DNA from: Phapecoctavirus DIJ07P2
Strand: one strand, 5' to 3'
Sequence record: OZ035771.1
DNA length: 64,000 bases
The translations under genes were made by a program, and so were the position numbers. Numbering within the stretch: position 1 is the first letter of the stretch; each line of letters opens with the position of its first letter. This document shows positions 2,879 through 63,960 of the stretch, one piece after another. The notes under the pieces were generated by a model. That model ran no database searches and was not told where the DNA came from. It saw only the letters and a list, made by a program, of their open reading frames with translations.

Positions 2879-2902
2879 TCACAACAGAAGAGAGAAATCA
2901 TC

Positions 2903-3175: not shown

Positions 3176-3178
3176 GGC

Positions 3179-3233: not shown

Positions 3234-3251
3234 TATTTGTAAGGTGGTAGA

Positions 3252-3509
3252 ATGTTTTACATCAAATTAAAAGGTCACGTGATCGCGTTCAAGGATAACG
3301 CTTTTTACAGATTAGCAAAATATGCGTTAATACATCCCCATTATGTTTATATAAGGGGGCGTGATGAAATAAATATCTTTGATCAAACAACATGCGAGAA
3401 CATCGAGATCCGCAAGGTTGGCGTACGTGACTATCGTACATCTTTCTACCCTTGCAAGGATTCAGCAAGTCTTTTTAAAGTATGCCAATTGTTGAAAAAA
3501 GGTGGTTAA
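3252..3509 (+). CDS. hypothetical protein (85 aa)
   Basis: track ORF; GGTGG RBS. Confidence 0.6.
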   Translation: MFYIKLKGHVIAFKDNAFYRLAKYALIHPHYVYIRGRDEINIFDQTTCENIEIRKVGVRDYRTSFYPCKDSASLFKVCQLLKKGG

Positions 3510-3510
3510 T

Positions 3511-4068
3511 ATGGGCCGCGAATATGTGATCCAGTCTTGGGTAAAACATGAAGCAGATGATCCGCGCATCATTCCTGATTATCTTGTCGATGAATCCACG
3601 GGCTATAGCGGGGAGCAAATAGGTAACAGATTAGCACGTAGTAACGGCAACGTAAAAGCGCGTTATGTGCGCCCTGGCTGGCTGGCAAATGGTAACGCTG
3701 ATTTATCCAGTGCGGAAGATGCGAGCGACGGCGCGAAAGATAATCCTTTGTACAAAGTTGATCCGGCTTTTCGTGTCCTGGATGAATACCCCAGCAAGAT
3801 AGCGGCGCTCGATCAGGCCCTGGAAAGTAAGCGCATCACCTGGACCGCTTACAACATGGCAAAAAACGTACTTGATGGTAAATTGATTCAAGCTGAAAGA
3901 AAATTAGCCAAAATTGCAGCCATAGCCCAGGAGGAAGACGAGGAGACAACGGAAGAGGAAGAGTACGAAGAGATCCCGCCGTTGTTGTGTGTTGATGCTT
4001 TTCCTGATTATCAGCCGACAGAGGAAGAAAAAAGGATCGCACTAGAAAACTTTGAAAATAGTCTTTGA
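3511..4068 (+). CDS. hypothetical protein with acidic C-terminus (185 aa)
   Basis: track ORF 3502..4068 trimmed to ATG 3511 (AAGGTGG 5 nt upstream); C-terminal EEDEETTEEEEYEE. Confidence 0.55.
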   Translation: MGREYVIQSWVKHEADDPRIIPDYLVDESTGYSGEQIGNRLARSNGNVKARYVRPGWLANGNADLSSAEDASDGAKDNPLYKVDPAFRVLDEYPSKIAALDQALESKRITWTAYNMAKNVLDGKLIQAERKLAKIAAIAQEEDEETTEEEEYEEIPPLLCVDAFPDYQPTEEEKRIALENFENSL

Positions 4069-4122
4069 CATATCGCCGCCACTGGCATAATATTTACCAC
4101 GTAGGGCGGCAATGGTGCCGCT
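4065..4122 (+). promoter_or_regulatory. early promoter / 5' hairpin cassette 4
   Basis: -35 TTGACA 4065 overlapping previous stop, -10 TAATAT 4088, stem GCGGC/GCCGC. Confidence 0.6.
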
Positions 4123-4150
4123 CATAGTGAAATTATGCAAGAGGCTTACA

Positions 4151-4246
4151 ATGATTAATAAAGGAAATAGCTTGACGGTTGGAACGATTAACGCTATCAT
4201 TCTCGCCGTTCCATTTTGGGTTGTAGTAGCGGCTATTATTTTCTAA
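4151..4246 (+). CDS. hydrophobic micro-protein (31 aa, single TM helix)
   Basis: ATG 4151 after AGAGG; MINKGNSLTVGTINAIILAVPFWVVVAAIIF; below 60-aa track cutoff. Confidence 0.45.
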   Translation: MINKGNSLTVGTINAIILAVPFWVVVAAIIF

Positions 4247-4255
4247 AAAATATTC

Positions 4256-4316
4256 TTGACAACGTTTTTTAATCTGATAAGATGTATCACATAGGGCGGC
4301 GGAATACTTCCCCGCC
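4256..4316 (+). promoter_or_regulatory. early promoter / 5' hairpin cassette 5
   Basis: -35 TTGACA 4256, -10 TAAGAT 4278, stem GGCGGCGG/CCCCGCC. Confidence 0.6.
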
Positions 4317-4337
4317 AAAACAAAAAAGGGTAACACA

Positions 4338-4700
4338 ATGAGCAAGCAAATCAATACTATCATGTTTAATCTGGTATCTTTCCGCGATGATATGAAAAAT
4401 TTACCACGTGAAACGGTTGATATTCATGTTTCAGCTTATCGCGCCCTTATTGACATGTTACCGCTAAAACGTGATCAACATGCCGCTAATATGATGCTTA
4501 ATGCTATGCTTAAAAAGATGATTCAAACGGATCTCACCCTGGCATATGAGTATCAAGGGCGCTTATATGCAAATTACAACAGAGCGGTACCTGGTCTGGG
4601 AAGTACTGAAGAGTTGCACGGCTTAAACCTGGATCAAAACACTTGGGATAGTATGCGCCGCGTTATGGTATGGGCCGAAAGCGGTAAAATTTACGAATAA
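4338..4700 (+). CDS. hypothetical protein (120 aa)
   Basis: track ORF directly downstream of cassette 5. Confidence 0.6.
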   Translation: MSKQINTIMFNLVSFRDDMKNLPRETVDIHVSAYRALIDMLPLKRDQHAANMMLNAMLKKMIQTDLTLAYEYQGRLYANYNRAVPGLGSTEELHGLNLDQNTWDSMRRVMVWAESGKIYE

Positions 4701-4706
4701 AAACGG

Positions 4707-4763
4707 TTGACACTGTTTTTTATTCTGGTATAGTTTATCACGTAGGGCGGCAATGGTGCCGCC
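4707..4763 (+). promoter_or_regulatory. early promoter / 5' hairpin cassette 6
   Basis: -35 TTGACA 4707, -10 TATAGT 4729, stem GCGGC/GCCGC. Confidence 0.6.
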
Positions 4764-4783
4764 AACAATAAAAGGTTAACATC

Positions 4784-4963
4784 ATGACCATCATTGCAAA
4801 AACTGAGATTATAGGTTTAGATTCGATCCTCCTGGCTTATGAGGAAACTTTAAAAATGTATGTAGTGACCTATGGTGATTATGTGCGTGAATACGAATAC
4901 ATTGATCTTGCTTTCGAATGTTACATTCGCCAGGTCAATAAAGCCTATAACGATTATCGTTAA
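4784..4963 (+). CDS. hypothetical micro-protein (59 aa)
   Basis: ATG 4784 after AAAGG; 60 codons; below track cutoff. Confidence 0.5.
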   Translation: MTIIAKTEIIGLDSILLAYEETLKMYVVTYGDYVREYEYIDLAFECYIRQVNKAYNDYR

Positions 4964-4982
4964 AAGTTTTAGTCTTATACTA

Positions 4983-5034
4983 TTGACAATGAGTGATAGT
5001 ATAAGCATAATAACTTTTATCGGGAATACTTCCC
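4983..5034 (+). promoter_or_regulatory. early promoter / weak hairpin cassette 7
   Basis: -35 TTGACA 4983; short stem GGGAA/TTCCC 5021-5034. Confidence 0.45.
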
Positions 5035-5059
5035 ACTAACCAAAAAAGAGAGTAATATC

Positions 5060-5425
5060 ATGGCTATTAATATCAATGTTTCCTCTTATGCTACCCTGGC
5101 TGACACGGCTAAAATTGAATTATCCAGCATTGAGGCGGTGCATATTAGCGCCCGTCGTTGGTTTCAACAGTCCTACGGTAACACATATTTTTCTTTAATG
5201 GTTGACGTTGAGATCGGCGGTAAACTGATCGAGGTGGTTAACGTTCCGTTTCAATATGGTTATGGTGATCATTTTGATACCGTCGCCCTGGAAGAATTTA
5301 GCAAGGTTATTAATATGGAAGGTAAAGAGTTTTCACGCGGCGCGTATCTTTCCCGTTTTTGCCGTGATAATGGGATCACTGTATACAGTCATGCGAGCGA
5401 TGTTAAACGTAAAAAAGATTTATAA
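5060..5425 (+). CDS. hypothetical protein (121 aa)
   Basis: track ORF; conserved leader and ATG-GCT start. Confidence 0.6.
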   Translation: MAININVSSYATLADTAKIELSSIEAVHISARRWFQQSYGNTYFSLMVDVEIGGKLIEVVNVPFQYGYGDHFDTVALEEFSKVINMEGKEFSRGAYLSRFCRDNGITVYSHASDVKRKKDL

Positions 5426-5431
5426 AAAGCA

Positions 5432-5490
5432 TTGACAGCACGAATAAAAAGAGTAAACTGTATTACATAGAGAGCGGGAACACTTCCCGC
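5432..5490 (+). promoter_or_regulatory. early promoter / 5' hairpin cassette 8
   Basis: -35 TTGACA 5432, -10 TAAACT ~5455, stem GCGGGAA/TTCCCGC. Confidence 0.55.
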
Positions 5491-5515
5491 CTCACTGAAA
5501 AAAGAGATTAACATC

Positions 5516-5755
5516 ATGGCTAAATCAAAAATGTTCTTAGGTCACAAAAATAAAACTCATTGGAATGTAAGCCTTTGGATTAATAACGATGAATCGTTAT
5601 ATCGGTTGGCGAAAGAATTTATCGCCGCTAATACTAATCGTAATGATGCTGCCCGTGATATGATGTTATTCCTGGAACAAACTGGACAAGATAAAACTCC
5701 AGACGGTTTCAAGTATAGCACTACAGCGATCCGCGCCGCGATGGTTGGAATGTAA
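5516..5755 (+). CDS. hypothetical protein (79 aa)
   Basis: track ORF. Confidence 0.6.
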   Translation: MAKSKMFLGHKNKTHWNVSLWINNDESLYRLAKEFIAANTNRNDAARDMMLFLEQTGQDKTPDGFKYSTTAIRAAMVGM

Positions 5756-5768
5756 AGGAGATATAAAA

Positions 5769-5849
5769 ATGAAACATCGTTCTACCTATCTAACAAAACG
5801 TTTTAGCTTAGATCATAAATTGGGCTATTACGGAAGAAATAGAAAATAA
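5769..5849 (+). CDS. possible micro-ORF (26 aa)
   Basis: ATG 5769 with strong AAGGAG 7 nt upstream. Confidence 0.3.
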   Translation: MKHRSTYLTKRFSLDHKLGYYGRNRK

Positions 5850-5850
5850 T

Positions 5851-5910
5851 TTGACAACGTTTAAAATTAGTGTAAGATGTATCACATAGGGCGGGAAGTG
5901 GTTTCCCGCC
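5851..5910 (+). promoter_or_regulatory. early promoter / 5' hairpin cassette 9
   Basis: -35 TTGACA 5851, -10 TAAGAT 5873, stem GCGGGAA/TTCCCGC. Confidence 0.6.
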
Positions 5911-5932
5911 AACAACAGAGAGATTAAAGATT

Positions 5933-6160
5933 ATGGCTATCAATATTGTTCGCGTATCCGGCACCGTTGGCACTTCCCAAGTTATTGCAGTTGTAACAAA
6001 CAAAAAGATTAATGATGTATGTGAAAGCTTGAATAAGTGGGCTATTGTTAATTTTGGGGAATATGCAAGCGTCGAGTACATCGAATCCTACCAGGTGCCA
6101 ACCATCAGCCTAACCGATCTCAACGTTGATCGCTTGTTGTGCCTGGATGAATTAATCTGA
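5933..6160 (+). CDS. hypothetical protein (75 aa)
   Basis: track ORF. Confidence 0.6.
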   Translation: MAINIVRVSGTVGTSQVIAVVTNKKINDVCESLNKWAIVNFGEYASVEYIESYQVPTISLTDLNVDRLLCLDELI

Positions 6161-6170
6161 AAAAAGATTG

Positions 6171-6227
6171 TTGACACCGGAAAGAAAAAGAGTAGAATAT
6201 ATTACATAGGGCGGCAATGGTGCCGCT
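6171..6227 (+). promoter_or_regulatory. early promoter / 5' hairpin cassette 10
   Basis: -35 TTGACA 6171, -10 TAGAAT 6194, stem GCGGC/GCCGC. Confidence 0.6.
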
Positions 6228-6251
6228 CACAACAGAAGAGAGATTATCACG

Positions 6252-6467
6252 ATGGCTAATATCCGCACTTTACTGAAAAATGCAAGTCAAGTTTTATTTT
6301 CAGATGATGAGTATTTCAATAAAGACATTACAGGCGTGAAAAATTTAAAAGACGTGAAGGATGTTATCGGTATTCGTGGATCTTTACGTAAAGGTGACTA
6401 CTATGGTAACAAGGTGCAATATAAACTGTCAAAGGATTACAATTTTACTTTGACAATTATTTCATAA
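6252..6467 (+). CDS. hypothetical protein (71 aa)
   Basis: track ORF. Confidence 0.6.
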   Translation: MANIRTLLKNASQVLFSDDEYFNKDITGVKNLKDVKDVIGIRGSLRKGDYYGNKVQYKLSKDYNFTLTIIS

Positions 6468-6473
6468 AACCGC

Positions 6474-6536
6474 TTGCAATACTGCAAAAATAAAGTAAAC
6501 TGTATTCATCAAGGCGGTGGAATAGCCAACCGCCTA
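6474..6536 (+). promoter_or_regulatory. early promoter / 5' hairpin cassette 11
   Basis: -35 TTGCAA 6474, -10 TAAACT ~6497, stem AGGCGGT/ACCGCCT. Confidence 0.5.
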
Positions 6537-6558
6537 ACAAAGAGAAGAGGAAAACATC

Positions 6559-6726
6559 ATGATCACTTTCGCTACCCGTGAAGCCGCTCGCAACGTTGCA
6601 CGTAAAGTTAACGCCGCCAACCTGGGCGCTACGCTTAAAGCTCCGGTAAAAGATGAATCAGGCAAATGGATCTTCCCTGGTCTGCGTCATGCTGACAAGT
6701 TAGGTACTTTAAGCCTTAAAAAATAA
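6559..6726 (+). CDS. hypothetical basic micro-protein (55 aa)
   Basis: ATG 6559 after AGAGGAAAAC leader; below track cutoff. Confidence 0.5.
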   Translation: MITFATREAARNVARKVNAANLGATLKAPVKDESGKWIFPGLRHADKLGTLSLKK

Positions 6727-6729
6727 TCG

Positions 6730-6766
6730 TTGACTTTTCGTTATAGCGCCTTACAATGGGCGCTAT
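6730..6766 (+). promoter_or_regulatory. early promoter / hairpin cassette 12 (-10 inside the loop)
   Basis: -35 TTGACT 6730, -10 TACAAT 6752 lying in the loop of stem TAGCGCC/GGCGCTA. Confidence 0.45.
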
Positions 6767-6801
6767 AGAGAAGAGAAACCACTACTAACAAGGAAACCAT
6801 T

Positions 6802-7023
6802 ATGATCACTTTCGCTATTGTCGCCGTTGTTGCTGGTCAAGTTTACGTAAATGAGACATTTACTACAGAAGACAAGGCAGCAGGAGATATAACCGCCGTT
6901 TACAATGAGTGCAAGGCAGTAGAAAGGATGTTAGCGCCTTGTATGCTAATGAGTGAACGCCAGGACGGAATAACAGTATTTACTAACATTGGAACAGGGT
7001 ACCAAATGGTAGTAACAAAATAA
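6802..7023 (+). CDS. hypothetical protein (73 aa)
   Basis: track ORF. Confidence 0.55.
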   Translation: MITFAIVAVVAGQVYVNETFTTEDKAAGDITAVYNECKAVERMLAPCMLMSERQDGITVFTNIGTGYQMVVTK

Positions 7024-7026
7024 AGC

Positions 7027-7083
7027 TTGACACCGATTTAATTTTTAGTAAACTGTTACACGTAGGGCGGGAATAGTTCCCGC
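7027..7083 (+). promoter_or_regulatory. early promoter / 5' hairpin cassette 13
   Basis: -35 TTGACA 7027, -10 TAAACT 7049, stem GCGGGA/TCCCGC 7067-7083. Confidence 0.6.
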
Positions 7084-7102
7084 TCAAAAAGAGAGAAAGA
7101 TC

Positions 7103-7456
7103 ATGAAAGCACAAAATGCAATTAAAGAGTACATCCTTGCCGCTATCGGTTTTAATGATTACGGTATTACAACAGAAAAAGAGAAGATCGCGGAATTGAT
7201 GCGCCGTTTTAATTCCGAGTACTGGTACCCTGATAACCAATCACGTTTTAATTATAGTATTGTTAAAGCACTTGCATCATGGTTACAAGGTTTGCCATCA
7301 GATATTAATATCGCTTTCGAATATTGGGAAGTGGATCGCTTGTTAACATCCTGGGGATACATTAAAGAGAATAGCAGCGATGATAAAATCCAACGAGAAA
7401 GGGAAAATTATTGGCTTTATATTGCAGGCGTGATCCTTGCTTGCTCTTATGAATGA
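7103..7456 (+). CDS. hypothetical protein (117 aa)
   Basis: track ORF. Confidence 0.6.
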   Translation: MKAQNAIKEYILAAIGFNDYGITTEKEKIAELMRRFNSEYWYPDNQSRFNYSIVKALASWLQGLPSDINIAFEYWEVDRLLTSWGYIKENSSDDKIQRERENYWLYIAGVILACSYE

Positions 7457-7462
7457 TAAACC

Positions 7463-7516
7463 TTGACAATTTTACAAAACAGTTTAAATTAACAATATAG
7501 CGGCAATGGTGCCGCT
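7463..7516 (+). promoter_or_regulatory. early promoter / 5' hairpin cassette 14
   Basis: -35 TTGACA 7463; stem AGCGGC/GCCGCT 7499-7516. Confidence 0.5.
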
Positions 7517-7535
7517 CATATAAAGAGGAAACAAA

Positions 7536-7682
7536 ATGAATACATCTAATCGCGCAGAAAAAATTCAATCTTCCAAGATCCGCAAGGCCTGGAACGAGGA
7601 AGTGATCCGCAAAGGCGACAAGCGTAATAAAACAAAGCGCGGGAAGAGTGACAAATATAATTGGATGGATTTAGAGGATTAA
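7536..7682 (+). CDS. basic micro-protein (48 aa)
   Basis: ATG 7536 after AAGAGGAAAC; lysine/arginine-rich; below track cutoff. Confidence 0.5.
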   Translation: MNTSNRAEKIQSSKIRKAWNEEVIRKGDKRNKTKRGKSDKYNWMDLED

Positions 7683-7688
7683 CATAAC

Positions 7689-7716
7689 AAGGGCGCACCA
7701 AGCGCCCTTTCTTTTT
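7689..7716 (+). terminator. rho-independent terminator (conserved hairpin type, copy 1)
   Basis: AAGGGCGCACCAAGCGCCCTT followed by TCTTTTT. Confidence 0.6.
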
Positions 7717-7737
7717 ATATGCAGAGGATAAACAAAG

Positions 7738-7923
7738 ATGACTTTAAACGAGCTTAAAACAGCCTACAACGCAACATTAAAAATAGCCGTGCGTTACCGT
7801 GATGCGTATGGTTTTATCGCGCAGGGCGTGATCCTGGGCTTTTCTGACGATGGTTTGATCTATGTTGATGCACATCACAACAAGGTTAAACCTGAAAACG
7901 TCATTAATATAAAATATCTTTAA
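7738..7923 (+). CDS. hypothetical protein (61 aa)
   Basis: track ORF; AGAGGA RBS. Confidence 0.5.
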   Translation: MTLNELKTAYNATLKIAVRYRDAYGFIAQGVILGFSDDGLIYVDAHHNKVKPENVINIKYL

Positions 7924-7929
7924 AAATGG

Positions 7930-7988
7930 TTGACACCATAACCGGACCTGTTAAACTGTATTACATCAGGCGGGGAATAGTTCCCCAC
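7930..7988 (+). promoter_or_regulatory. early promoter / 5' hairpin cassette 15
   Basis: -35 TTGACA 7930, -10 TAAACT 7952, stem GGGG/CCCC. Confidence 0.5.
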
Positions 7989-8008
7989 CATACAAAAAGG
8001 TAAATATT

Positions 8009-8215
8009 ATGATCACCGCAAAACAAGAAAAAATCATTATCGACGTTGCAGCCGTTGCCGCTATCGCTATTATTGGATCTTATTATGATACCCGTTTCCC
8101 GTCGGCTATGCATGAGGTCGCCGCCGTTGCATCAGTTGGCGTACTGTTTTACGTTGGTAAACGCTATTTATCACCAATGATTAACAAGCTGACACCGTGG
8201 AAAAATAAAGGTTGA
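8009..8215 (+). CDS. small membrane protein (68 aa)
   Basis: track ORF; hydrophobic stretches. Confidence 0.55.
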   Translation: MITAKQEKIIIDVAAVAAIAIIGSYYDTRFPSAMHEVAAVASVGVLFYVGKRYLSPMINKLTPWKNKG

Positions 8216-8266
8216 TCCTGTTTTACATTATGTTATAGTTATCGTGTAGGGCGGCAATGGTGCCGC
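8212..8266 (+). promoter_or_regulatory. early promoter / 5' hairpin cassette 16
   Basis: -35 TTGATC 8212, -10 TATAGT 8234, stem GGCGGC/GCCGC. Confidence 0.5.
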
Positions 8267-8286
8267 GCCCCTTTGAGGATGCAATC

Positions 8287-8571
8287 ATGAGTAAAGCTAA
8301 CACCGTGCTAATGTTTTCCCTGATTAATGATCTCGCTTACTTGTCCAACATGACGCAGGAGGGTAACACATTAACGGCAACATTCACCAATAAGCTTGAC
8401 CGAGTGATCATCGTCTCACTGAAAACAGTTAGTAAAGGCTTTTACTTGTTAGCTTATCATTGTATCACTGATACCGATGAGACAAGCCAGGACTATAGCG
8501 CCCCTTTCCCTGAATCAATGGCACGGGAGATCATCGCCGCCGTTGTAAATGATGGTTTGTTTACTGCATAA
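8287..8571 (+). CDS. hypothetical protein (94 aa)
   Basis: track ORF 8257..8571 trimmed to ATG 8287. Confidence 0.55.
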   Translation: MSKANTVLMFSLINDLAYLSNMTQEGNTLTATFTNKLDRVIIVSLKTVSKGFYLLAYHCITDTDETSQDYSAPFPESMAREIIAAVVNDGLFTA

Positions 8572-8589
8572 AATAATTTAGAAAAAGGC

Positions 8590-8646
8590 TTGCAATCATT
8601 TTGAGATAGTGTATATTTAATTCATAGGGCGGCGGGAATAGTTCCC
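8590..8646 (+). promoter_or_regulatory. early promoter / 5' hairpin cassette 17
   Basis: -35 TTGCAA 8590, -10 TATATT 8612, stem GGGAA/TTCCC. Confidence 0.45.
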
Positions 8647-8669
8647 AAAGCAAACGAGAGGATTACACG

Positions 8670-8789
8670 ATGAGCAAGTACACAGTAGAATACACGGTAG
8701 AGAATCCGGCAGTATCCGAAGGTAAAAAGATGACATTTACCATCAGTATAATCGCTTTCGTTGTCACTATCTTATCAATCATCTTATAA
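8670..8789 (+). CDS. hydrophobic micro-protein (39 aa)
   Basis: ATG 8670 after GAGAGG; C-terminal TM segment; below track cutoff. Confidence 0.45.
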   Translation: MSKYTVEYTVENPAVSEGKKMTFTISIIAFVVTILSIIL

Positions 8790-8799
8790 GGTGCACACC

Positions 8800-8961
8800 A
8801 TGAAAACAACAGATATTATCAAAGAGATCGCCCTTGCCGCTGGCGTTGAGATCGAGGAAGTGATCGCGCTCAATCTTACAGAAAACGATCTGCGCAACTA
8901 TGAAGCGGAAAGCGTGAAAGCAAGTGGCGCGGTCCTGGCATATAATCCGGCTAACAAATAG
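8800..8961 (+). CDS. hypothetical micro-protein (53 aa)
   Basis: track ORF 8761..8961 trimmed to ATG 8800. Confidence 0.45.
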   Translation: MKTTDIIKEIALAAGVEIEEVIALNLTENDLRNYEAESVKASGAVLAYNPANK

Positions 8962-8962
8962 T

Positions 8963-9017
8963 TTGACAAGCTGAATCAACCTGATAAGATGTATCACATA
9001 GGGGCGACAAGCGCCCC
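8963..9017 (+). promoter_or_regulatory. early promoter / 5' hairpin cassette 18
   Basis: -35 TTGACA 8963, -10 TAAGAT 8985, stem GGGGCG/CGCCCC. Confidence 0.6.
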
Positions 9018-9038
9018 GCCTAACAGAGAGATAGAATC

Positions 9039-9317
9039 ATGACCATCGCCAAATTATCCGCCGAAGAAATCGAACAAGTGCTAACTACTAACCTGGAACA
9101 ATGGAAACGTGAGGCAGATATACAATCAGCACAATGGCTTAACGAGAAGTTAACACCGGATGATCTGAGTAAGATTATAGATCCTCAATTCTACGAAGAT
9201 ATTCACGACACCGTTTTAAGCGTCGAGGATGTACTTGATAAGCATTATATTGCTACTGATTTGCAGGTTTACGGGCGTAAAAACTTTATTACTATTCACG
9301 ACATTTACAATAACTAA
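9039..9317 (+). CDS. hypothetical protein (92 aa)
   Basis: track ORF. Confidence 0.6.
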   Translation: MTIAKLSAEEIEQVLTTNLEQWKREADIQSAQWLNEKLTPDDLSKIIDPQFYEDIHDTVLSVEDVLDKHYIATDLQVYGRKNFITIHDIYNN

Positions 9318-9325
9318 GGGATAAC

Positions 9326-9454
9326 ATGAATCCGAAAGATATGCAAGCATGGAAAGGGTACGACGATCTAAGCGCCTTGCGCAATAAGTCAAGCCGTAAC
9401 CTTAGACGGTTAGAAGCAAAGAAAAAGAAAAAACAGTTTGACAAGTCCGCTTAA
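9326..9454 (+). CDS. basic micro-protein (42 aa)
   Basis: ATG 9326 after TAAGGGATAAC; end overlaps next promoter; below track cutoff. Confidence 0.4.
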   Translation: MNPKDMQAWKGYDDLSALRNKSSRNLRRLEAKKKKKQFDKSA

Positions 9455-9494
9455 TCTGGTAAAGTGTATCTCGTAGGGCGGCAATGATGCCGCT
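9438..9494 (+). promoter_or_regulatory. early promoter / 5' hairpin cassette 19
   Basis: -35 TTGACA 9438, -10 TAAAGT 9460, stem GGCGGC/GCCGC (loop AATGAT). Confidence 0.55.
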
Positions 9495-9514
9495 CACAAG
9501 AAGAGAGAAAAATC

Positions 9515-9799
9515 ATGAAGATCACAAAAAGCCTAACTAATTATGCAGCACGTCGCGGATTATGCTTAACCGTTGAAAACTCAGGGAAAGAAGACTTTTT
9601 GTGTTTTTGGGAGCTTGAAAATGATTGCGAGTGGATGTTTTCTTATTCTATCTGCGAAGATCAAAACGGTTGTTTGTTAACCTGGCGCGGTAATATCTAT
9701 TTACCGGAAGAAATTAAAGAAGAGTTACCAGGTACGATCATGACAGAGAGACAGCTTAAGGAAGTGATCAATTTTGTAGGGCAAAACATTAAAAAATAA
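9515..9799 (+). CDS. hypothetical protein (94 aa)
   Basis: track ORF. Confidence 0.6.
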   Translation: MKITKSLTNYAARRGLCLTVENSGKEDFLCFWELENDCEWMFSYSICEDQNGCLLTWRGNIYLPEEIKEELPGTIMTERQLKEVINFVGQNIKK

Positions 9800-9800
9800 T

Positions 9801-9862
9801 TTGACAGCACGCAAACAACGTAGTAAAGTTTACCACATAGGGCGGCGGAATGGTCCACCGCT
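9801..9862 (+). promoter_or_regulatory. early promoter / 5' hairpin cassette 20
   Basis: -35 TTGACA 9801; CACATAGGGCGG box; GC stem ~9841-9862. Confidence 0.55.
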
Positions 9863-59961: not shown

Positions 59962-60215
59962 TCTAGCCTCCTAAACGCGTCTCTGACGCACTTTTTATAT
60001 ATAAGATGATAAATCACCTTACCTAGTAAGTGAACTTGCTCTACGAGCCTCTTATGAAGCTTATGTTATAGGCTATACTATTGCTACCTATTTAAGCAAG
60101 GTTTTTTGCACAAAGAAAATAATTTTTAATAAAACTCTTGACTTTTGTGTTCGAAGTATGCTACCCTAGAAATCTATTAACGAGCGCAGCGAGTTAAGGT
60201 TTTAGGTTGTTGATG

Positions 60216-60250
60216 TAGTACTCTGTACTCAAGTACTGTACTCCGTACTA
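60216..60250. repeat. GTACT iteron array (5 copies in 35 bp)
   Basis: tAGTACTctGTACTcaAGTACTGTACTccGTACTag. Confidence 0.6.
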
Positions 60251-60297
60251 GATTAATAATTATTAAATATTAATAATAAATAATTATTAGATCTAAC
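60249..60297. repeat. AT-only near-palindrome (~48 bp)
   Basis: TAGATTAATAATTATTAAATATTAATAATAAATAATTATTAGATCTA. Confidence 0.55.
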
Positions 60298-60443
60298 AAA
60301 CAGGTACAGTGTATCAGAACTGGTACGTACAGATCAACTTCTATCAATTAAAAATAAAATAATAAATTATTATAAATAATACTTGATCTATAGATTAGTA
60401 TGAAGTACAGTACGGAACATCTTAACAAGAATGGAGGTGTGCA

Positions 60444-60658: not shown

Positions 60659-60919
60659 GTGAGGAGATGCCGATCACTCCCCATTTGGGGGTTCGAAGGA
60701 TATATGCAAAATAGCTTTTATTTTAGGTGCCGTGCTTGTAATAGGCATTTGACAAACCACTCCAGACGTGATAAAAATGGAGTCATCAAGGAATCAGACC
60801 TCTGTTCTATTTGCACAGGTTTGGCTTTTGATGATAGTCCCGAAAGGGTTTATCAGCATCAATATATAACAGACGTTCTCGTATCAAACTTGGTAGAGGA
60901 CGAACAACTAACAGATTAG
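60659..60919 (+). CDS. hypothetical Cys-rich protein (86 aa)
   Basis: track ORF; CRACNRH...CSICTG. Confidence 0.45.
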   Translation: MRRCRSLPIWGFEGYMQNSFYFRCRACNRHLTNHSRRDKNGVIKESDLCSICTGLAFDDSPERVYQHQYITDVLVSNLVEDEQLTD

Positions 60920-60927
60920 GAGGAACA

Positions 60928-61176
60928 ATGTCTCTATTAGAAAAACACGTGTTTGAAGATGGTAACGGCAATGCAGTTTTTCTTTTCCATCCAGAAAAAT
61001 ACACATCTGAAAACAATGGTACAACTTCTATTGTAATCACTAAAGATGTTAAAGTTATTGATTTCTTGGCTCTGATGCGAGAGATGGATCTTGAAATTAA
61101 TACTTTTAACGCAGAAGCTTTGGTTGTTGCTCTTCTGGAAAAGAAAGATAGTGAAGAAGTAGCAGAATACGCTTAA
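60928..61176 (+). CDS. hypothetical protein (82 aa)
   Basis: track ORF; AGGAGGAACA RBS. Confidence 0.55.
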   Translation: MSLLEKHVFEDGNGNAVFLFHPEKYTSENNGTTSIVITKDVKVIDFLALMREMDLEINTFNAEALVVALLEKKDSEEVAEYA

Positions 61177-61183
61177 ATAACTA

Positions 61184-61220
61184 TTGACAAACGTATCCTT
61201 CATATGTTAGGATACGTTCA
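61184..61220 (+). promoter_or_regulatory. promoter overlapped by a 9-bp inverted-repeat operator
   Basis: TTGACA 61184 followed by ACGTATCCT-tcatatgtt-AGGATACGT. Confidence 0.45.
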
Positions 61221-61226
61221 TCAAGT

Positions 61227-61417
61227 GTGGTAACAGGGTCGTTGACTTTTGTTAAGAGGGGCTTGCACTGCGGATAGTGTTAGAGACTACTTCTTCAGAG
61301 GTTAGCTACCAAAGAGGAAAAGGAATAGTCTCGGCTCAAGAACTTTTACGCTGAAAGTTGGGCTTGGTCTTAGAGAATGTAGCGGTTCTCTACAATCGTC
61401 AGCGTCTCTGTTACCAC
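61227..61417 (+). ncRNA. candidate structured leader / ncRNA upstream of first tRNA
   Basis: perfect 10-bp terminal inverted repeat GTGGTAACAG (61227) / CTGTTACCAC (61408) enclosing ~170 nt with internal inverted repeats; no ORF. Confidence 0.3.
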
Positions 61418-61423
61418 ATTTAT

Positions 61424-61498
61424 GGCCCTGTAGCTCAATGGGAGAGCTGTCGGCTCATAACCGATAGGTAGCTGGATCGAAACCAGCCAGGGCCACCA
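61424..61498 (+). tRNA. tRNA-Met (CAT) or Ile2
   Basis: acceptor GGCCCTG/CAGGGCC, anticodon loop CTCATAA, T-arm GCTGG-ATCGAAA-CCAGC, A73, CCA encoded. Confidence 0.75.
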
Positions 61499-61500
61499 AC

Positions 61501-61575
61501 GTCTTTATGGTGTAATGGATAGCACAGGAGTCTTCTAAACTCTTAGTCAAGGTTCGATTCCTTGTAAAGACACCA
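61501..61575 (+). tRNA. tRNA-Arg (TCT)
   Basis: acceptor GTCTTTA/TAAAGAC, anticodon loop CTTCTAA, T-loop TTCGATT. Confidence 0.75.
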
Positions 61576-61771
61576 GAACATTTTAACATGAATTAGCTCA
61601 AGTGATTTGAACCCACTACTGATCATGGTGGCAGAGAATGAGGCAAGTATGTCAGACATTATAAACAAAGGCCACGGTTATATTAGAAGACATAAATGCT
61701 CGAAGAGCACTGTTCGTGGAGAACGGGGGTTGGTGGAGTCACCATTCATGGTAAAATGTTTTAAAAAACTA

Positions 61772-61800
61772 TTGACAACAAGCATTATTTTATGTTAGAT
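61772..61800 (+). promoter_or_regulatory. sigma70-like promoter for downstream tRNAs
   Basis: TTGACA 61772, 17-nt spacer, TTAGAT. Confidence 0.45.
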
Positions 61801-61809
61801 TATAAGTAT

Positions 61810-61900
61810 GGAAGGGCAAATCGACGTGGCGACGAAAACGGTCTTGAAAACCGCCGAGCTTGAAAGAGCCTTGGGAGTTCGACTCTCCCTCCTTCCGCCA
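61810..61900 (+). tRNA. tRNA-Ser (TGA)
   Basis: anticodon arm CGGTCTTGAAAACCG identical to enterobacterial tRNA-Ser(UGA); long variable arm; T-arm GGGAG-TTCGACT-CTCCC. Confidence 0.75.
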
Positions 61901-61905
61901 GATTA

Positions 61906-61991
61906 GGTAGATTGGTGAAATGGTAGCCACGACAGTTTGCTAAACTGTAGTCGGAAACGGCGTGTAGGTTCGAGTCCTACATCTACCGCCA
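61906..61991 (+). tRNA. tRNA-Ser (GCT)
   Basis: acceptor GGTAGAT/ATCTACC, anticodon loop TTGCTAA, long variable arm. Confidence 0.7.
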
Positions 61992-62121
61992 AGTTCTTTT
62001 TAATGTAGCTTACTTTAGCAGAGTAAATCTTCGGCAAGTGGCGGTAACCACTTTACCGATAACTCATAGTTAGTGGTGTGAACACTGGCTATTTTAAAAA
62101 GAATTTAAATATTAGTATTTA

Positions 62122-62209
62122 GGTGAGTTAATTCCGTAGGGGTAGCGGGGCAGACTGTAAATCTGTTATCATTGCGATTCGGGTGGTTCGACTCCATCAC
62201 TCACCACCA
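62122..62209 (+). tRNA. tRNA-Tyr (GTA)
   Basis: acceptor GGTGAGT/ACTCACC, anticodon arm GCAGA-CTGTAAA-TCTGT, long variable arm, A73. Confidence 0.7.
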
Positions 62210-62215
62210 AATTAA

Positions 62216-62301
62216 GATGAGTTGGCTGAATGGTTTAAGCGGCGGACTGTTAATCCGTGTTCGAAAGAACAATATAGGTTCGAATCCTATACTCATCGCC
62301 A
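62216..62301 (+). tRNA. type-II tRNA with Asn anticodon GTT
   Basis: acceptor GATGAGT/ACTCATC, anticodon arm GCGGA-CTGTTAA-TCCGT, 15-nt variable region, G73. Confidence 0.55.
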
Positions 62302-62308
62302 GAATTAT

Positions 62309-62385
62309 GGACTTGTAGAGTTAAGGTAAACCCCCAGTCGCCAATAGGCTTCTGGAATTGCAGGTATCGAATCCTGCCGAGTCCC
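62309..62385 (+). ncRNA. tRNA-like element without canonical anticodon arm
   Basis: acceptor-like GGACTTG/CGAGTCC and T-arm GCAGG-TATCGAAT-CCTGC, but no 5-7-5 anticodon stem-loop and no encoded CCA. Confidence 0.3.
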
Positions 62386-62391
62386 AGCATT

Positions 62392-62466
62392 GCTCCTATA
62401 GTATAATGGCTATTACAACGGTTTTGTAATCCGTGGATCTCTGTTCGATTCAGTGTGGGAGCACCA
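62392..62466 (+). tRNA. tRNA-Thr (TGT)
   Basis: acceptor GCTCCTA/TGGGAGC, anticodon loop TTTGTAA, T-loop TTCGATT, A73. Confidence 0.7.
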
Positions 62467-62741
62467 ACACAACATTAAGAGCACTGTGATTGATCGTCGT
62501 ATCCTGTGCACAAGGTCTGCTCGAAAGACAGTGTTCTTAGTATTGTGTTGATCACAAAAAGAGTCACCCGAAACTTGACCGGAGTAGGGTTGGATGGGGC
62601 AAAATGAGAAGCGGCTCTCCCATCGACAGCAACGAAGAATAATATTTGACTTTGGTTTTGTATTATTTTAAGTTAGCTTACCGAACGTAGGGCTAGTCAC
62701 CCAAAGGGATACTCGTCACTGTCCCACCTATTAAATAACTA

Positions 62742-62771
62742 TTGACATTCGATAGTAAAATGTAGTATAGT
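62742..62771 (+). promoter_or_regulatory. sigma70-like promoter for downstream tRNAs
   Basis: TTGACA 62742, 18-nt spacer, TATAGT. Confidence 0.45.
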
Positions 62772-62788
62772 AAATATATATATACAAA

Positions 62789-62865
62789 GCGTTATTAGTG
62801 TTAGCGGTTCAGCATCCCGTCCTTCCAAGTCGGTGGCATCGGTTCGAATCCGATATAACGCTCCA
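62789..62865 (+). tRNA. tRNA-Gly (TCC)
   Basis: acceptor GCGTTAT/ATAACGC, anticodon loop CTTCCAA, T-arm ATCGG-TTCGAAT-CCGAT, U73. Confidence 0.7.
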
Positions 62866-62963
62866 AATTATTTAATAAAGGGTTGCCAGAAAACTTTCTC
62901 TTTTACTAATGGTTTTCTCTTTCTCTCACACCTCTTCTGGTTGCCCTTCATTAAATGATTTAT

Positions 62964-63039
62964 TGGTTTGTAGTGTAGTCCGGTAGCACACGACACTTTG
63001 ACTGTCGTAGGTTTGGTTCAAATCCAGACAGACCAGCCA
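62964..63039 (+). tRNA. tRNA-Gln (TTG)
   Basis: anticodon arm CGACA-CTTTGAC-TGTCG, T-loop TTCAAAT, G73. Confidence 0.7.
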
Positions 63040-63083
63040 TATAACAAAGGTGAGTCACTACCTTAAGTGCGAAGTTAAAATAT

Positions 63084-63160
63084 ACAGCCTTTAGCTCAAC
63101 CTGGTAGAGTGCATCGTTTGGGGCGATGAAGTTAAAAGTTCGAATCTTTTAAGGCTGACC
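63084..63160 (+). tRNA. tRNA-Pro (TGG)
   Basis: C1:G72 acceptor CAGCCTT/AAGGCTG, anticodon arm CATCG-TTTGGGG-CGATG, T-loop TTCGAAT, A73. Confidence 0.75.
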
Positions 63161-63235
63161 AAATTACAATTCCATGCGTCTGACAAAAGGTTAGTCGGTA
63201 TAAGACGTGGGATTTAATACTTATAAGGAGGACTT

Positions 63236-63577
63236 ATGTATAAATGTAGCCATTGTGGTGAAGAAGATCCGCAAAAGTTCTACGGTCATAAGAAATCTAT
63301 TTGTGGTTATTGTCATAATAAGTATACAATAGACTTAGGACAACAGAAAAAGAAGTATGCTCGTGATAAGTTAGGTGGTAAGTGTGTTTCCTGCGGTTAC
63401 GATAAATATCAGGAAGCTTTAGATATACACCATCTTGATCCGACAATAAAAGACCGGAGTTTCGCATCCATGCGTGGGTGGTCGCTTAAGAGGATTGATA
63501 AAGAGATAGAGAACTGCATCTTACTATGTAAGAACTGTCATTCAGCTTTCCATTCTGGTCATGATATTACTTGGTAG
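63236..63577 (+). CDS. HNH endonuclease within tRNA cluster
   Basis: CSHCG...CGYCH...DIHHLDP...CKNCH; AAGGAGG RBS. Confidence 0.75.
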   Translation: MYKCSHCGEEDPQKFYGHKKSICGYCHNKYTIDLGQQKKKYARDKLGGKCVSCGYDKYQEALDIHHLDPTIKDRSFASMRGWSLKRIDKEIENCILLCKNCHSAFHSGHDITW

Positions 63578-63591
63578 TAATACTAATTAAA

Positions 63592-63665
63592 TGTTTCGTA
63601 GTTCAATGGTAGAACCCACGACTGATAATCGTGAGACACAAGTTCGATTCTTGTCGAAACAACCA
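63592..63665 (+). tRNA. tRNA-Ile (GAT)
   Basis: acceptor TGTTTCG/CGAAACA, anticodon arm CACGA-CTGATAA-TCGTG, T-loop TTCGATT, A73. Confidence 0.7.
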
Positions 63666-63667
63666 GT

Positions 63668-63737
63668 TTCCCGTTAGACTTACAGGATAAGAGATCCACA
63701 ATTTATTGTGACGCTGGTTCGAATCCAGCACGGGATA
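63668..63737 (+). ncRNA. tRNA-like element with degenerate anticodon arm
   Basis: T-arm GCTGG-TTCGAAT-CCAGC and acceptor-like TTCCCGT/ACGGGAT (1-72 mismatch), middle forms CACAA-ttta-TTGTG instead of an anticodon arm. Confidence 0.3.
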
Positions 63738-63742
63738 CATAA

Positions 63743-63821
63743 TAGCGGGATAGAGGAGTCTGGTCGTCCTCGCCAGTTTCATATGCTGGAGATCATTGGT
63801 TCAAATCCAATTCCCGCCTCC
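63743..63821 (+). tRNA. tRNA with CAT anticodon (second Met/Ile2-type)
   Basis: anticodon arm CCAGT-TTCATAT-GCTGG, T-arm ATTGG-TTCAAAT-CCAAT, A1-C72 mismatch, U73. Confidence 0.6.
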
Positions 63822-63936
63822 AAATATCGCTTGCCAGCGGTATCTTTGAAGACCTTGCCTGGTTCCTTCTAAGATGGAGGGGTGCGACTCCTTAACGCAC
63901 AATCATAATAAAACATTTCAAATTAACAGTATTTAT

Positions 63937-63960
63937 TGGCCTCCTTATTGGAGGCTTTTT
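63937..63960 (+). terminator. rho-independent terminator
   Basis: GGCCTCC-ttatt-GGAGGC followed by TTTTT. Confidence 0.7.

What the first reader, a model, noticed from the sequence alone, without database searches (positions are those of the whole stretch)
61184..61423. Operator-overlapped promoter and ~170-nt structured leader upstream of the tRNA cluster
A TTGACA promoter is overlapped by a perfect 9-bp inverted repeat ACGTATCCT-N9-AGGATACGT, followed by a segment bracketed by a perfect 10-bp inverted repeat (GTGGTAACAG at 61227, CTGTTACCAC at 61408) with further internal inverted repeats (GAGACTA/TAGTCTC, TAGAGAA/TTCTCTA). No ORF is present. This looks like a regulated promoter producing a structured RNA that may be a stable ncRNA or a processing substrate releasing the first tRNA.
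Basis: seen in the sequence. Interest (0 to 1): 0.5.

Follow-up and report, generated by a model that had tools for sequence, protein, structure and literature searches.

The report
Structured RNA gene before phage tRNAs
Between a bacterial-type promoter and the first tRNA of a phAPEC8-like coliphage lies a ~204-nt RNA whose multi-hairpin fold has been kept by compensating mutations; it matches no described RNA family and its function is unknown, much like the old unexplained small RNAs of phage T4's tRNA cluster.

Summary
The window is a Phapecoctavirus (phAPEC8-like). 61220-61423 (+) folds into a 22-bp closing helix plus five hairpins (dG -77 kcal/mol, z -5.65). Across three lineages, 13 of 72 predicted pairs carry compensatory double changes and 98% of cells stay paired; shifted-register controls give 0-1 and 41-49%. 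The fold is specific to the + strand. It starts 3 nt after the predicted transcription start and ends 2 nt before the tRNA 5' end, so RNase P cleavage would release a discrete ~204-nt RNA. It has no Rfam match, no tRNA likeness, no coding signature, no paralog in the genome and no homology to T4 RNAC/RNAD. I found it only in Phapecoctavirus. Sister phages (phi92, Tr1) and the cluster's two other paralogous promoters lead straight into tRNAs. I therefore read it as an RNA gene of its own, not a required leader. The promoter palindrome is real (10 bp perfect), unique in the ~150-kb genome, and kept by two compensatory changes. "Operator" is unproven: the second lineage has a G.T that is RNA-compatible and a 1-nt spacing change, so an RNA hairpin in read-through transcripts fits equally well. 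Function unknown; moderate interest.

The parts
61173..61189 (+). Promoter upstream block and -35: TTAAATAACTATTGACA (-35 TTGACA at 61184-61189)
   Evidence: Consensus scan. The 17-nt block recurs only at 61761 and 62731, both in the tRNA cluster, and nowhere else in the ~150-kb genome. The second of these promoters is conserved in phi92.
61190..61218 (.). Perfect 10-bp palindrome AACGTATCCT-N9-AGGATACGTT. It covers the promoter spacer and -10 (about -30 to -2). Candidate operator, or RNA hairpin in read-through transcripts.
   Evidence: unique in window and genome. The second lineage has GCGTGTCTT-N8-AAGATACGC, i.e. two compensatory pair changes, one G.T, and a loop shorter by 1 nt.
61205..61213 (+). 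Extended -10: TG-t-TAGGAT
   Evidence: 10 of 12 consensus matches, TG present. The second lineage has TAAGAT with a 17-nt spacer.
61220..61423 (+). Predicted ~204-nt structured RNA. The 5' end is the inferred transcription start (A, 7 nt after the -10); the 3' end is the inferred RNase P cut at the tRNA 5' end.
   Evidence: Fold z -5.65. Covariation. Covariance-model score 237 bits on + against 30 bits on -. No Rfam match at E up to 10. The start and end positions are inferred, not measured.
61223..61245 (+). P1 closing helix, 5' strand (16 bp, 1-nt bulge at 61239, 6 bp)
   Evidence: The sequence is almost invariant across three lineages: 1 change in 46 nt (a U.G to U-A change), against about 27% divergence in the interior (my count).
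61399..61421 (+). P1 closing helix, 3' strand; ends 2 nt before the tRNA
   Evidence: Three of the four differences between the two arms are G.U-compatible on the + strand only (read from the sequence).
61246..61260 (+). H2, a weak 5-bp hairpin with loop GUUAA
   Evidence: one pair changes U.G to G-C.
61265..61280 (+). H3 hairpin (GCACU...AGUGU)
   Evidence: two pairs with compensatory changes and three different stem sequences in the three lineages. A 1-nt loop indel is tolerated.
61283..61332 (+). H4, a long bipartite hairpin with an invariant apex GAGGUUAGCUACCAA
   Evidence: compensatory changes at the pairs of columns 70-113 and 77-101, and U.G/U-A/C-G at columns 78-100. The apex GCUAC is complementary to GUAGC in the H6 loop (the contact is inferred).
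61333..61364 (+). H5 hairpin (GGCUCA-AGA-ACUUUUA-CGC-UGAAAGU-UGGGCU)
   Evidence: one U-A to A-U swap, otherwise invariant.
61365..61398 (+). H6 hairpin with a basal extension; the loop keeps GUAGC in all lineages
   Evidence: seven pairs with compensatory changes (helices 10 and 11).
61424..61498 (+). First tRNA of the cluster (anticodon CAT, CCA encoded). Its 5' end defines the RNA's 3' end.
   Evidence: ARAGORN; Rfam tRNA 64.5 bits. One relative annotates it as tRNA-Ile (H2). Its 5' half is identical to T4 tRNA-Ile.

Best explanation
61220-61423 is a gene for a discrete, highly structured ~204-nt non-coding RNA at the head of the phage's tRNA cluster.

Proposed mechanism:
1. Host sigma-70 RNA polymerase starts at about 61220 from an extended -10 promoter (TTGACA-18-TGtTAGGAT). 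This is one of three paralogous promoters found only in the cluster.
2. The first 204 nt fold into a compact domain. A 22-bp helix (P1) pairs the 5' end of the transcript with the sequence just before the first tRNA. It encloses five hairpins (H2-H6) and possibly an H4-H6 loop-loop contact.
3. RNase P cutting at the tRNA 5' end (61423/61424, with U at -1) releases the RNA with both ends held in P1. This is how small stable RNAs are co-processed with tRNAs in phage T4.
4. The RNA then acts in its own right. The near-invariant P1 sequence and the invariant H4/H5 apices make binding of a protein or another RNA the likeliest mode. The target is unknown.

The 10-bp palindrome over the promoter's spacer and -10 is a conserved control element specific to this promoter. 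It is either a repressor operator or an RNA hairpin in read-through transcripts.

Shown: the repeats, the consensus promoter, strand-specific structure conservation, absence of coding signal, restriction to one lineage. Inferred: the start site, the RNase P release, RNA stability, any trans function, and the palindrome's role.
For: Structure:
- dG -77.2, z -5.65. The same fold persists when the promoter and tRNA are included.
- Four sequences: 66 pairs, 8 with compensatory changes, no pair broken between the lineages; the single unpaired cell is one genome's variant in P1.
- Nine sequences from three lineages: 72 pairs, 13 with compensatory changes, 98.0% of cells paired. Slid controls give 41-49% paired and 0-1 compensatory pairs; 0 of 500 shuffles reach the observed values.

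Strand:
- Covariance model 237 bits on + against 30 bits on -.
- The - strand folds 23 kcal/mol worse.

Discrete unit:
- P1 begins 3 nt after the predicted start and ends 2 nt before the tRNA.

Not needed as a leader:
- Promoters at 61772 and 62742 share the same upstream block but lead into tRNAs after roughly 2-11 nt.
- phi92 and Tr1 have the homologous upstream gene followed directly by tRNAs, with no match to the RNA model.

Not coding:
- 13 non-synonymous against 1 synonymous codon change, differences spread 6/9/6 over codon positions, and a frameshift in this window.

Other:
- G+C is 0.44-0.49, like the tRNAs, against 0.34-0.39 in flanking genes.
Against: - No expression data: neither the start site, nor RNase P release, nor RNA stability has been observed.
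- There are only three lineages, all within one genus, so the covariation rests on few independent events.
- All four other inter-tRNA spacers that I folded also have paired ends (z -2.7 to -6.0). End-paired folding may therefore be a general processing or insulation feature of this cluster and not evidence of a special RNA.
- A helix that starts at -3 relative to the RNase P site is not an ideal RNase P leader.
- Read-through from upstream promoters (60626, 60749) would give longer 5' ends.
- No partner, target or phenotype can be named.
Confidence: 0.55

Rival explanations
1. Cis-acting leader only. The structure exists to serve the tRNA operon and the excised RNA has no function of its own. 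It could protect the 5' end of the primary transcript, keep the tRNAs from misfolding, provide a double-stranded processing stalk for RNase III as in rRNA operons, or make the polymerase resistant to Rho on a 2.7-kb untranslated transcript.
For: - All four other inter-tRNA spacers tested also fold with their ends paired: z -3.18, -2.69, -3.84 and -5.96.
- P1 is a 22-bp near-perfect duplex, long enough for RNase III.
- The cluster is long, untranslated, and has one clear terminator, at 63938-63956.
Against: - Two paralogous promoters in the same cluster, and the sister phages phi92 and Tr1, express tRNAs without any such leader.
- Compensatory changes maintain six separate inner helices, and several loops and apices are invariant. 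That is more specific than insulation would require.
- No boxA-like or put-like match in Rfam.
Confidence: 0.3
2. The promoter palindrome is not a protein operator. It is an RNA hairpin formed in transcripts that read through from the upstream genes (60659-61176), serving as a 3' stabiliser or processing signal for that mRNA or for the 5' end of the structured RNA.
For: - There is no terminator between the upstream ORF stop (61176) and the promoter.
- The second lineage keeps all nine pairs only if G.U is allowed on the + strand, and its loop is 1 nt shorter. RNA tolerates that; a dimer operator tolerates it less well.
- Tr1 has an unrelated 7-bp hairpin with a C(UUCG)G tetraloop in the equivalent promoter spacer.
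- The palindrome is unique in the genome, so there is no regulon of sites.
- The hairpin forms in the predicted fold of the longer transcript.
Against: - Its position, about -30 to -2, is classic for a repressor.
- Only two sequence variants exist, so the G.U argument rests on one position.
- It is not followed by a U tract, so it is not a terminator.
- The two roles are not mutually exclusive.
Confidence: 0.4
3. A DNA-level element: inverted protein-binding sites, a cruciform or a replication-origin feature. The conserved P1 arms would be binding sites and not an RNA helix.
For: - The P1 arms are almost invariant while the interior diverges by about 27%.
- The same 10-mer, GTGGTAACAG/CTGTTACCAC, occurs as inverted iteron arrays in three unrelated viral contigs.
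- The region lies about 1 kb from a divergent-transcription, AT-rich zone at 60000-60400.
Against: - Thirteen compensatory pairs in the interior helices and about a dozen G.U pairs make the structure specific to one strand: 237 against 30 bits, and -77 against -54 kcal/mol.
- Three of the four differences between the P1 arms are G.U-compatible on + only.
- Each arm occurs once, with no iteration.
- The iteron contigs have no similarity to the RNA model.
Confidence: 0.04
4. A small protein gene: the 34-aa TTG ORF annotated as 'hypothetical protein' in WPEC1, PsgM04F and a few other records.
For: The frame is open in the phAPEC8-type and phiWec-type sequences, and some records annotate it.
Against: - 13 non-synonymous against 1 synonymous codon difference between lineages, with differences spread 6/9/6 over codon positions.
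- A 1-nt insertion shifts the frame in this window and in phage REC.
- There is no Shine-Dalgarno sequence before the TTG.
- Most records do not annotate it.
Confidence: 0.02

Closest known systems
Phage T4 small stable RNAs RNAC (species 1) and RNAD (species 2) in the tRNA cluster
   Same: Non-coding, structured, 120-140 nt, encoded inside a phage tRNA cluster and transcribed with the tRNAs. Their function is still unknown (PMC3014915, PMC9697503). This is the same kind of object in the same genomic setting.
   Different: - No homology: the covariance model scores at most about 3 bits on rnaC and rnaD.
- The T4 RNAs lie at the 3' end of the cluster, whereas this RNA is at the 5' end directly after a promoter.
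- RNAC ends in a T-arm-like hairpin, whereas this RNA has no tRNA-like part.
- This RNA is larger (~204 nt) and is closed by a 22-bp terminal helix.
rRNA-operon processing stalks (the long helix formed by 5' and 3' flanks of 16S/23S rRNA and cut by RNase III); from established knowledge
   Same: A long duplex formed by the two ends of a stable-RNA unit inside a polycistronic stable-RNA transcript.
   Different: Here the enclosed RNA is about 150 nt with no known function. RNase III cleavage is untested, and the 3' boundary coincides with an RNase P site.
MALAT1/mascRNA-type 3'-end formation by RNase P; from established knowledge
   Same: The 3' end of a structured non-coding RNA would be made by RNase P cutting at the 5' end of an adjacent tRNA or tRNA-like structure.
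   Different: That is a eukaryotic system in which the downstream element is a tRNA-like decoy. Here the downstream element is a genuine tRNA. No homology (the only mascRNA-menRNA match, E 0.93, falls on the second tRNA at 61501-61571, not on the leader).
Operator-overlapped sigma-70 promoters (a dyad across the spacer and -10)
   Same: A perfect dyad covering about -30 to -2, maintained by compensatory changes.
   Different: No cognate protein is known, there is only one site in the genome, and the arm spacing is not conserved. An RNA-hairpin reading is equally viable.

Membership tests
Any Rfam 15 family (riboswitches, 6S, Y RNA/YrlA, tmRNA, ribozymes, GOLLD/ROOL, put/EAR etc.) | Covariance-model match at or near the family's gathering score | tested here: not met
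   No match in 61215-61423 at E up to 1 in the 3.5-kb scan. In the 251-nt scan at E up to 10 the only match is a 13-bit miRNA chance hit that covers the promoter palindrome.
tRNA / tRNA-like element | Cloverleaf detected by ARAGORN or the Rfam tRNA model | tested here: not met
   ARAGORN finds nothing in the leader. There is no tRNA-clan match at E up to 10.
T4 RNAC/RNAD | Sequence and structure homology | tested here: not met
   Model R1 with filters off on the T4 tRNA region: best score 8 bits, elsewhere in the region; no more than about 3 bits over rnaC and rnaD.
T4 RNAC/RNAD | Non-coding structured RNA encoded within, and transcribed with, a phage tRNA cluster | tested here: met
   Location, covariation and absence of coding signal are met. 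Co-transcription is inferred from the promoter and the lack of any terminator.
T4 RNAC/RNAD | Accumulates as a stable, discrete RNA in infected cells | not testable with these tools
   No RNA-seq or northern data for Phapecoctavirus in the searchable literature.
Sigma-70 promoter | -35 and -10 hexamers at 16-18 nt spacing | tested here: met
   TTGACA-18-TAGGAT with TG, 10 of 12 matches. The second lineage has TTGACA-17-TAAGAT. Three paralogous copies lie in the cluster.
Sigma-70 promoter | Mapped transcription start | not testable with these tools
   No 5'-end data available.
Repressor operator | Dyad symmetry overlapping core promoter elements | tested here: met
   A 10-bp perfect dyad at 61190-61218; two compensatory changes keep the symmetry.
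Repressor operator | Conserved half-site spacing and additional sites in the genome | tested here: not met
   The loop is 9 nt in one lineage and 8 nt in the other. No second site with up to 2 mismatches per arm, except chance-level ones, in window + L068 + L069, about 150 kb.
Repressor operator | A cognate DNA-binding protein | not testable with these tools
   The neighbouring small ORFs have no informative Pfam or PHROG match.
Intrinsic terminator (for the palindrome) | G+C-rich stem followed by a T run | tested here: not met
   Not reported by the terminator scan. The stem is followed by CATCAAG.
RNase III processing stalk | At least ~20 bp duplex formed by the flanks of a stable RNA | tested here: met
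   P1 is 16 + 6 bp with one bulged nucleotide. Cleavage itself cannot be tested here.
Protein-coding small ORF | Open frame conserved, with an excess of synonymous change | tested here: not met
   13 non-synonymous against 1 synonymous change; frameshift in the window.

The most novel reading that the evidence does not exclude
This is the founding member of an undescribed family of phage RNAs. The RNA is made from a dedicated, separately controlled early promoter, released by RNase P, and acts in trans. One example would be a sequence-specific decoy or sponge for a host or phage protein, such as an RNA-processing enzyme or a defence nuclease that targets tRNAs. The near-invariant 22-bp P1 helix and the invariant palindromic H4 apex (UAGCUA) would then be the recognition surfaces.
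Probability: 0.3. Interest if true: 0.65.

Novelty: new member of a known kind. Interest (0 to 1): 0.45.

Why it matters
phAPEC8-like phages are widely isolated and are used as therapy candidates, yet this locus is unannotated or mis-annotated as a 34-aa protein in public records. It is a well-supported structured RNA with no family assignment, and it has a clean architecture: its own promoter with a unique palindrome, paired ends, and an RNase P-defined 3' end. That gives a tractable handle on an old open question, namely what the small non-tRNA RNAs in phage tRNA clusters do, which is still unanswered for T4 RNAC/RNAD. The element is about 200 nt, absent from sister genera, and flanked by defined processing sites, so deletion and transplantation experiments are simple. 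If it proves to be only a processing leader, the finding is ordinary. In either case the ORF annotation should be corrected.

Tried and rejected
- Rfam at permissive thresholds on 3.5 kb and on 251 nt: nothing.
- blastn (11-nt words) against 50,697 phage records: 70 records, all Phapecoctavirus-type; the interior alone gave only chance 26-nt hits elsewhere.
- E. coli complete genomes: no match.
- GTDB genome contigs, two patterns: 0 hits.
- Metagenome contigs: 2 hits, both from known lineages.
- IMG/VR scan with GGTTAGCTACCAAAG: 53 hits, all chance.
- IMG/VR scan with the P1 5' strand: gave the third lineage, L072.
- IMG/VR scan with the H4-H5 gapped pattern: only L072.
- IMG/VR scan for the P1 inverted 10-mers at 140-170 nt spacing: four hits that do not match the RNA model; three are iteron arrays and one is a glycine-rich coding region. 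My gap range also missed the true 171-nt spacing.
- Covariance model R1: no paralog in the window or in the rest of the KKP 3954 genome, and no match in the phi92, Tr1 or T4 tRNA regions.
- Coding hypothesis: rejected.
- Terminator reading of the palindrome: rejected.
- boxA-like antitermination motif: looked for by eye in 61243-61257 (UGACUUUUGUUAAGA against UGCUCUUUAACAA); not convincing, so dropped.
- Neighbouring small ORFs as a candidate regulator: no informative domain.
- Literature search for Phapecoctavirus transcriptomes or leader RNAs: nothing relevant.

Full report
WHAT THE WINDOW IS. The region is 99-100% identical to Escherichia phages KKP 3954, phAPEC8, ESCO5 and about 60 others. 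These are ~150-kb members of genus Phapecoctavirus, subfamily Stephanstirmvirinae. The finding sits between a small + strand ORF (60928-61176, PHROG 15056, function unknown) and the first of at least ten tRNA genes at 61424-63822.

OBSERVATION.
- The promoter is TTGACA (61184-89), an 18-nt spacer, then TAGGAT (61208-13) preceded by TG, which makes it an extended -10 promoter.
- The palindrome is 10 bp perfect (AACGTATCCT 61190-99 / AGGATACGTT 61209-18). It extends imperfectly to 16-nt arms.
- The GTGGTAACAG/CTGTTACCAC repeat is the core of a 22-bp helix.

THE RNA STRUCTURE IS REAL.
- As RNA, 61215-61423 folds to -77.2 kcal/mol against -53.6 +/- 4.2 for dinucleotide shuffles (z -5.65, 0 of 200 as good). 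The fold is unchanged when the promoter and tRNA are included.
- The layout is P1 (61223-38 with 61406-21, then 61240-45 with 61399-61404) enclosing five hairpins: H2 61246-60, H3 61265-80, H4 61283-61332, H5 61333-64 and H6 61365-98.
- Homologues fall into three lineages: the phAPEC8 type (98% identity or more), the phiWec179/PsgM04F type (about 80%) and an IMG/VR contig, L072.
- On nine distinct sequences, RNAalifold predicts 72 pairs. Thirteen carry compensatory double changes, and 98.0% of cells are standard pairs.
- Sliding the 3' partners by 1-3 columns gives 41-49% paired and 0-1 compensatory pairs. No shuffle out of 500 reaches the observed values.
- H3 has three different stem sequences in the three lineages.
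- Between the two main lineages no paired position is broken. The only breaks are single-genome variants in P1, in ev052 and PsgM04F.
- The covariation rests on few independent events, because there are only three lineages. The result is nonetheless clean.

STRAND.
- About a dozen G.U pairs make the fold specific to the + strand.
- The covariance model scores 237 bits on + and 30 bits on -.
- The reverse complement folds 23 kcal/mol worse.
- Three of the four positions at which the two P1 arms differ are G.U-compatible on + only (read from the sequence).
- Together with the interior covariation, this argues against a purely DNA-level inverted repeat.

NOT CODING, NOT A KNOWN RNA.
- A 34-aa TTG ORF is annotated here in a few relatives.
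- Between lineages it shows 13 non-synonymous against 1 synonymous codon change, with differences spread 6/9/6 over codon positions.
- A 1-nt insertion in the H3 loop shifts the frame in this window.
- Rfam 15 gives no match in the leader at E up to 1, or at E up to 10 when only 251 nt are searched.
- ARAGORN and the tRNA model find nothing there.
- The model finds no paralog in the window or in the rest of the KKP 3954 genome.
- There is no similarity in E. coli genomes, GTDB genomes or other phage groups.

BOUNDARIES AND HOW IT IS PROBABLY MADE.
- With the -10 ending at 61213, the expected start is the A at 61220, and P1 begins at 61223.
- P1 ends at 61421, and the tRNA begins at 61424 with U at -1.
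- The structured domain thus fills almost exactly the interval between the predicted start and the RNase P site.
- The simplest reading, which is inferred and not shown, is a primary transcript whose first 204 nt are released by RNase P with both ends held in a helix.
- The base of P1 is A-U and G.U rich (AAGU/AUUU), so it could open to admit RNase P.
- A 22-bp duplex is also long enough for RNase III. A cut within P1 is therefore an alternative or additional step.

IS IT A GENE OR JUST A LEADER?
Three observations favour a gene:
- The 17-nt promoter block TTAAA(T/A)AACTATTGACA occurs three times, all in the tRNA cluster (61173, 61761, 62731) and nowhere else in the genome. The other two copies lead into tRNAs after roughly 2-11 nt.
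- In phi92 (Justusliebigvirus) and Citrobacter phage Tr1 the homologue of the upstream ORF is followed directly by tRNAs. In Tr1 a promoter intervenes. There is no leader and no match to the model.
- Selection has maintained six separate inner helices, and several apices and junctions are invariant: GAGGUUAGCUACCAA, UCGGCUCAAGAAC, UUACGCUGAA and GUUGGGCU.

One observation favours a leader:
- All four other inter-tRNA spacers I folded also pair their ends and are unusually stable, with z from -2.7 to -6.0. Self-contained folding may therefore be a general design feature of this operon.

I put the stand-alone RNA at 0.55 and the cis-only leader at 0.30.

TWO FEATURES THAT MAY BEAR ON FUNCTION.
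- P1 is almost invariant in sequence: 1 change in 46 nt, a U.G to U-A change. The interior has diverged by about 27% (my count). Pairing alone does not explain this, since other helices covary freely. A sequence-specific reader of P1, or constraints from processing enzymes, is implied.
- The invariant H4 apex contains GCUAC, which is complementary to GUAGC. GUAGC is the only conserved part of the otherwise variable H6 loop. The complementarity is 5 bp in this window and 8 bp in the phiWec lineage, where the minimum-energy fold actually uses it. This suggests a loop-loop contact, but there is no covariation to prove it. The apex UAGCUA is also self-complementary.

THE PALINDROME.
- It is the longest inverted repeat at any promoter-like site in the window.
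- It is unique in the genome.
- Two pair-wise compensatory changes preserve it in the other lineages (A..T to G..C and C..G to T..A). It is therefore functional.
- Its position, about -30 to -2, suits a repressor.
- Several points fit an RNA hairpin equally well:
  - there is only one site;
  - the arm spacing differs by 1 nt between lineages;
  - the one asymmetric change is G.T, which is G.U on + strand RNA;
  - no terminator separates the upstream genes from it;
  - Tr1 carries an unrelated 7-bp hairpin with a C(UUCG)G tetraloop in the same promoter spacer.
- It is not an intrinsic terminator.
- I leave operator against read-through RNA hairpin at roughly even odds.

COMPARISON WITH KNOWN SYSTEMS.
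- The closest known kind is the small stable RNAs of phage tRNA clusters. [quoted passage not shown]
- The present RNA resembles them in setting and probable biogenesis. It is not homologous to them, it lies at the 5' and not the 3' end of the cluster, and it lacks the T-arm-like element seen in RNAC.
- From memory only, phage T5 also encodes small stable RNAs among its tRNAs. I did not verify this here.
- The helix formed by the two ends resembles rRNA processing stalks.
- RNase P-defined 3' ends are known from MALAT1/mascRNA. Both are functional analogies, not family membership.

VERDICT. This is a genuine, previously undescribed and lineage-restricted structured RNA with its own specially marked promoter. 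It is a new member of a known kind, of moderate interest, and its function is unresolved. The public annotation of a 34-aa protein at this locus is very probably wrong.

Noticed in passing
window 61576-61770, 61992-62121, 62467-62740 (long hairpin 62467-62548), 62866-62963: All four non-tRNA spacers inside the cluster that I folded have their 5' and 3' ends paired and are unusually stable (z -3.18, -3.84, -2.69, -5.96). Large parts are 94-100% identical between the two main lineages, which is more conserved than the leader RNA itself. They may be further structured RNAs or processing modules.
   Followed up: partly
window 61173-61189, 61761-61777, 62731-62747: Three paralogous promoters share TTAAA(T/A)AACTATTGACA. 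The block is found only in the tRNA cluster across the whole ~150-kb genome. The second and third lead almost directly into tRNAs.
   Followed up: yes
window 61810-61896, 62122-62206, 63668-63737, 62302-62391: tRNA-like sequences that ARAGORN missed. Rfam tRNA-Sec model 37 bits at 61810-61896 (annotated as tRNA-Ser, or as a pseudo-tRNA, in relatives). Rfam tRNA 39 bits at 62122-62206 (tRNA-Tyr in relatives). A weak 24-bit tRNA match at 63668-63737. 62302-62391 is 94-100% conserved between lineages but unannotated.
   Followed up: partly
window 63236-63577 (+): A 113-aa HNH endonuclease ORF (Pfam HNH 1.5e-6; PHROG 2255 2.5e-27) is inserted between tRNA-Pro and tRNA-Ile. It is absent from phAPEC8 and phiWec179, where these two tRNAs are adjacent. 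It is probably a mobile homing-endonuclease insertion.
   Followed up: partly
window 2820-9801 (+): A dense array of about 17 strong sigma-70-like promoters, roughly one every 300-500 nt. Most are followed by a conserved block resembling gTATCACATAGGGCGGCAATGGTGCCG. These look like repeated promoter-plus-stem-loop cassettes in an early-gene region.
   Followed up: no
window 6730-6775 (+): A second promoter with a 9-bp perfect inverted repeat bracketing its -10: TATAGCGCC-N8(TACAAT)-GGCGCTATA.
   Followed up: no
L074 8991-9150, L076 2985-3168, L077 849-1020 (IMG/VR contigs): Unrelated viral contigs carry arrays of direct and inverted copies of GTGGTAACAG / CTGTTACCAC around AT-rich DNA. They look like iterons of an origin or a repressor-binding region. 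The 10-mer happens to equal the P1 core, but there is no similarity to the RNA model.
   Followed up: partly
window 61424-61498: The first tRNA is called tRNA-Met (CAT). One relative annotates it as tRNA-Ile, and its first 18 nt are identical to T4 tRNA-Ile (CAU). It may be an AUA-decoding tRNA-Ile2. T4-like phages carry copies 95-96% identical.
   Followed up: partly
L058 3805-3840 (Citrobacter phage Tr1): The promoter in front of Tr1's first tRNA has a 7-bp hairpin with a C(UUCG)G tetraloop inside its -35/-10 spacer. This echoes, with an unrelated sequence, the palindrome in this window's promoter.
   Followed up: partly
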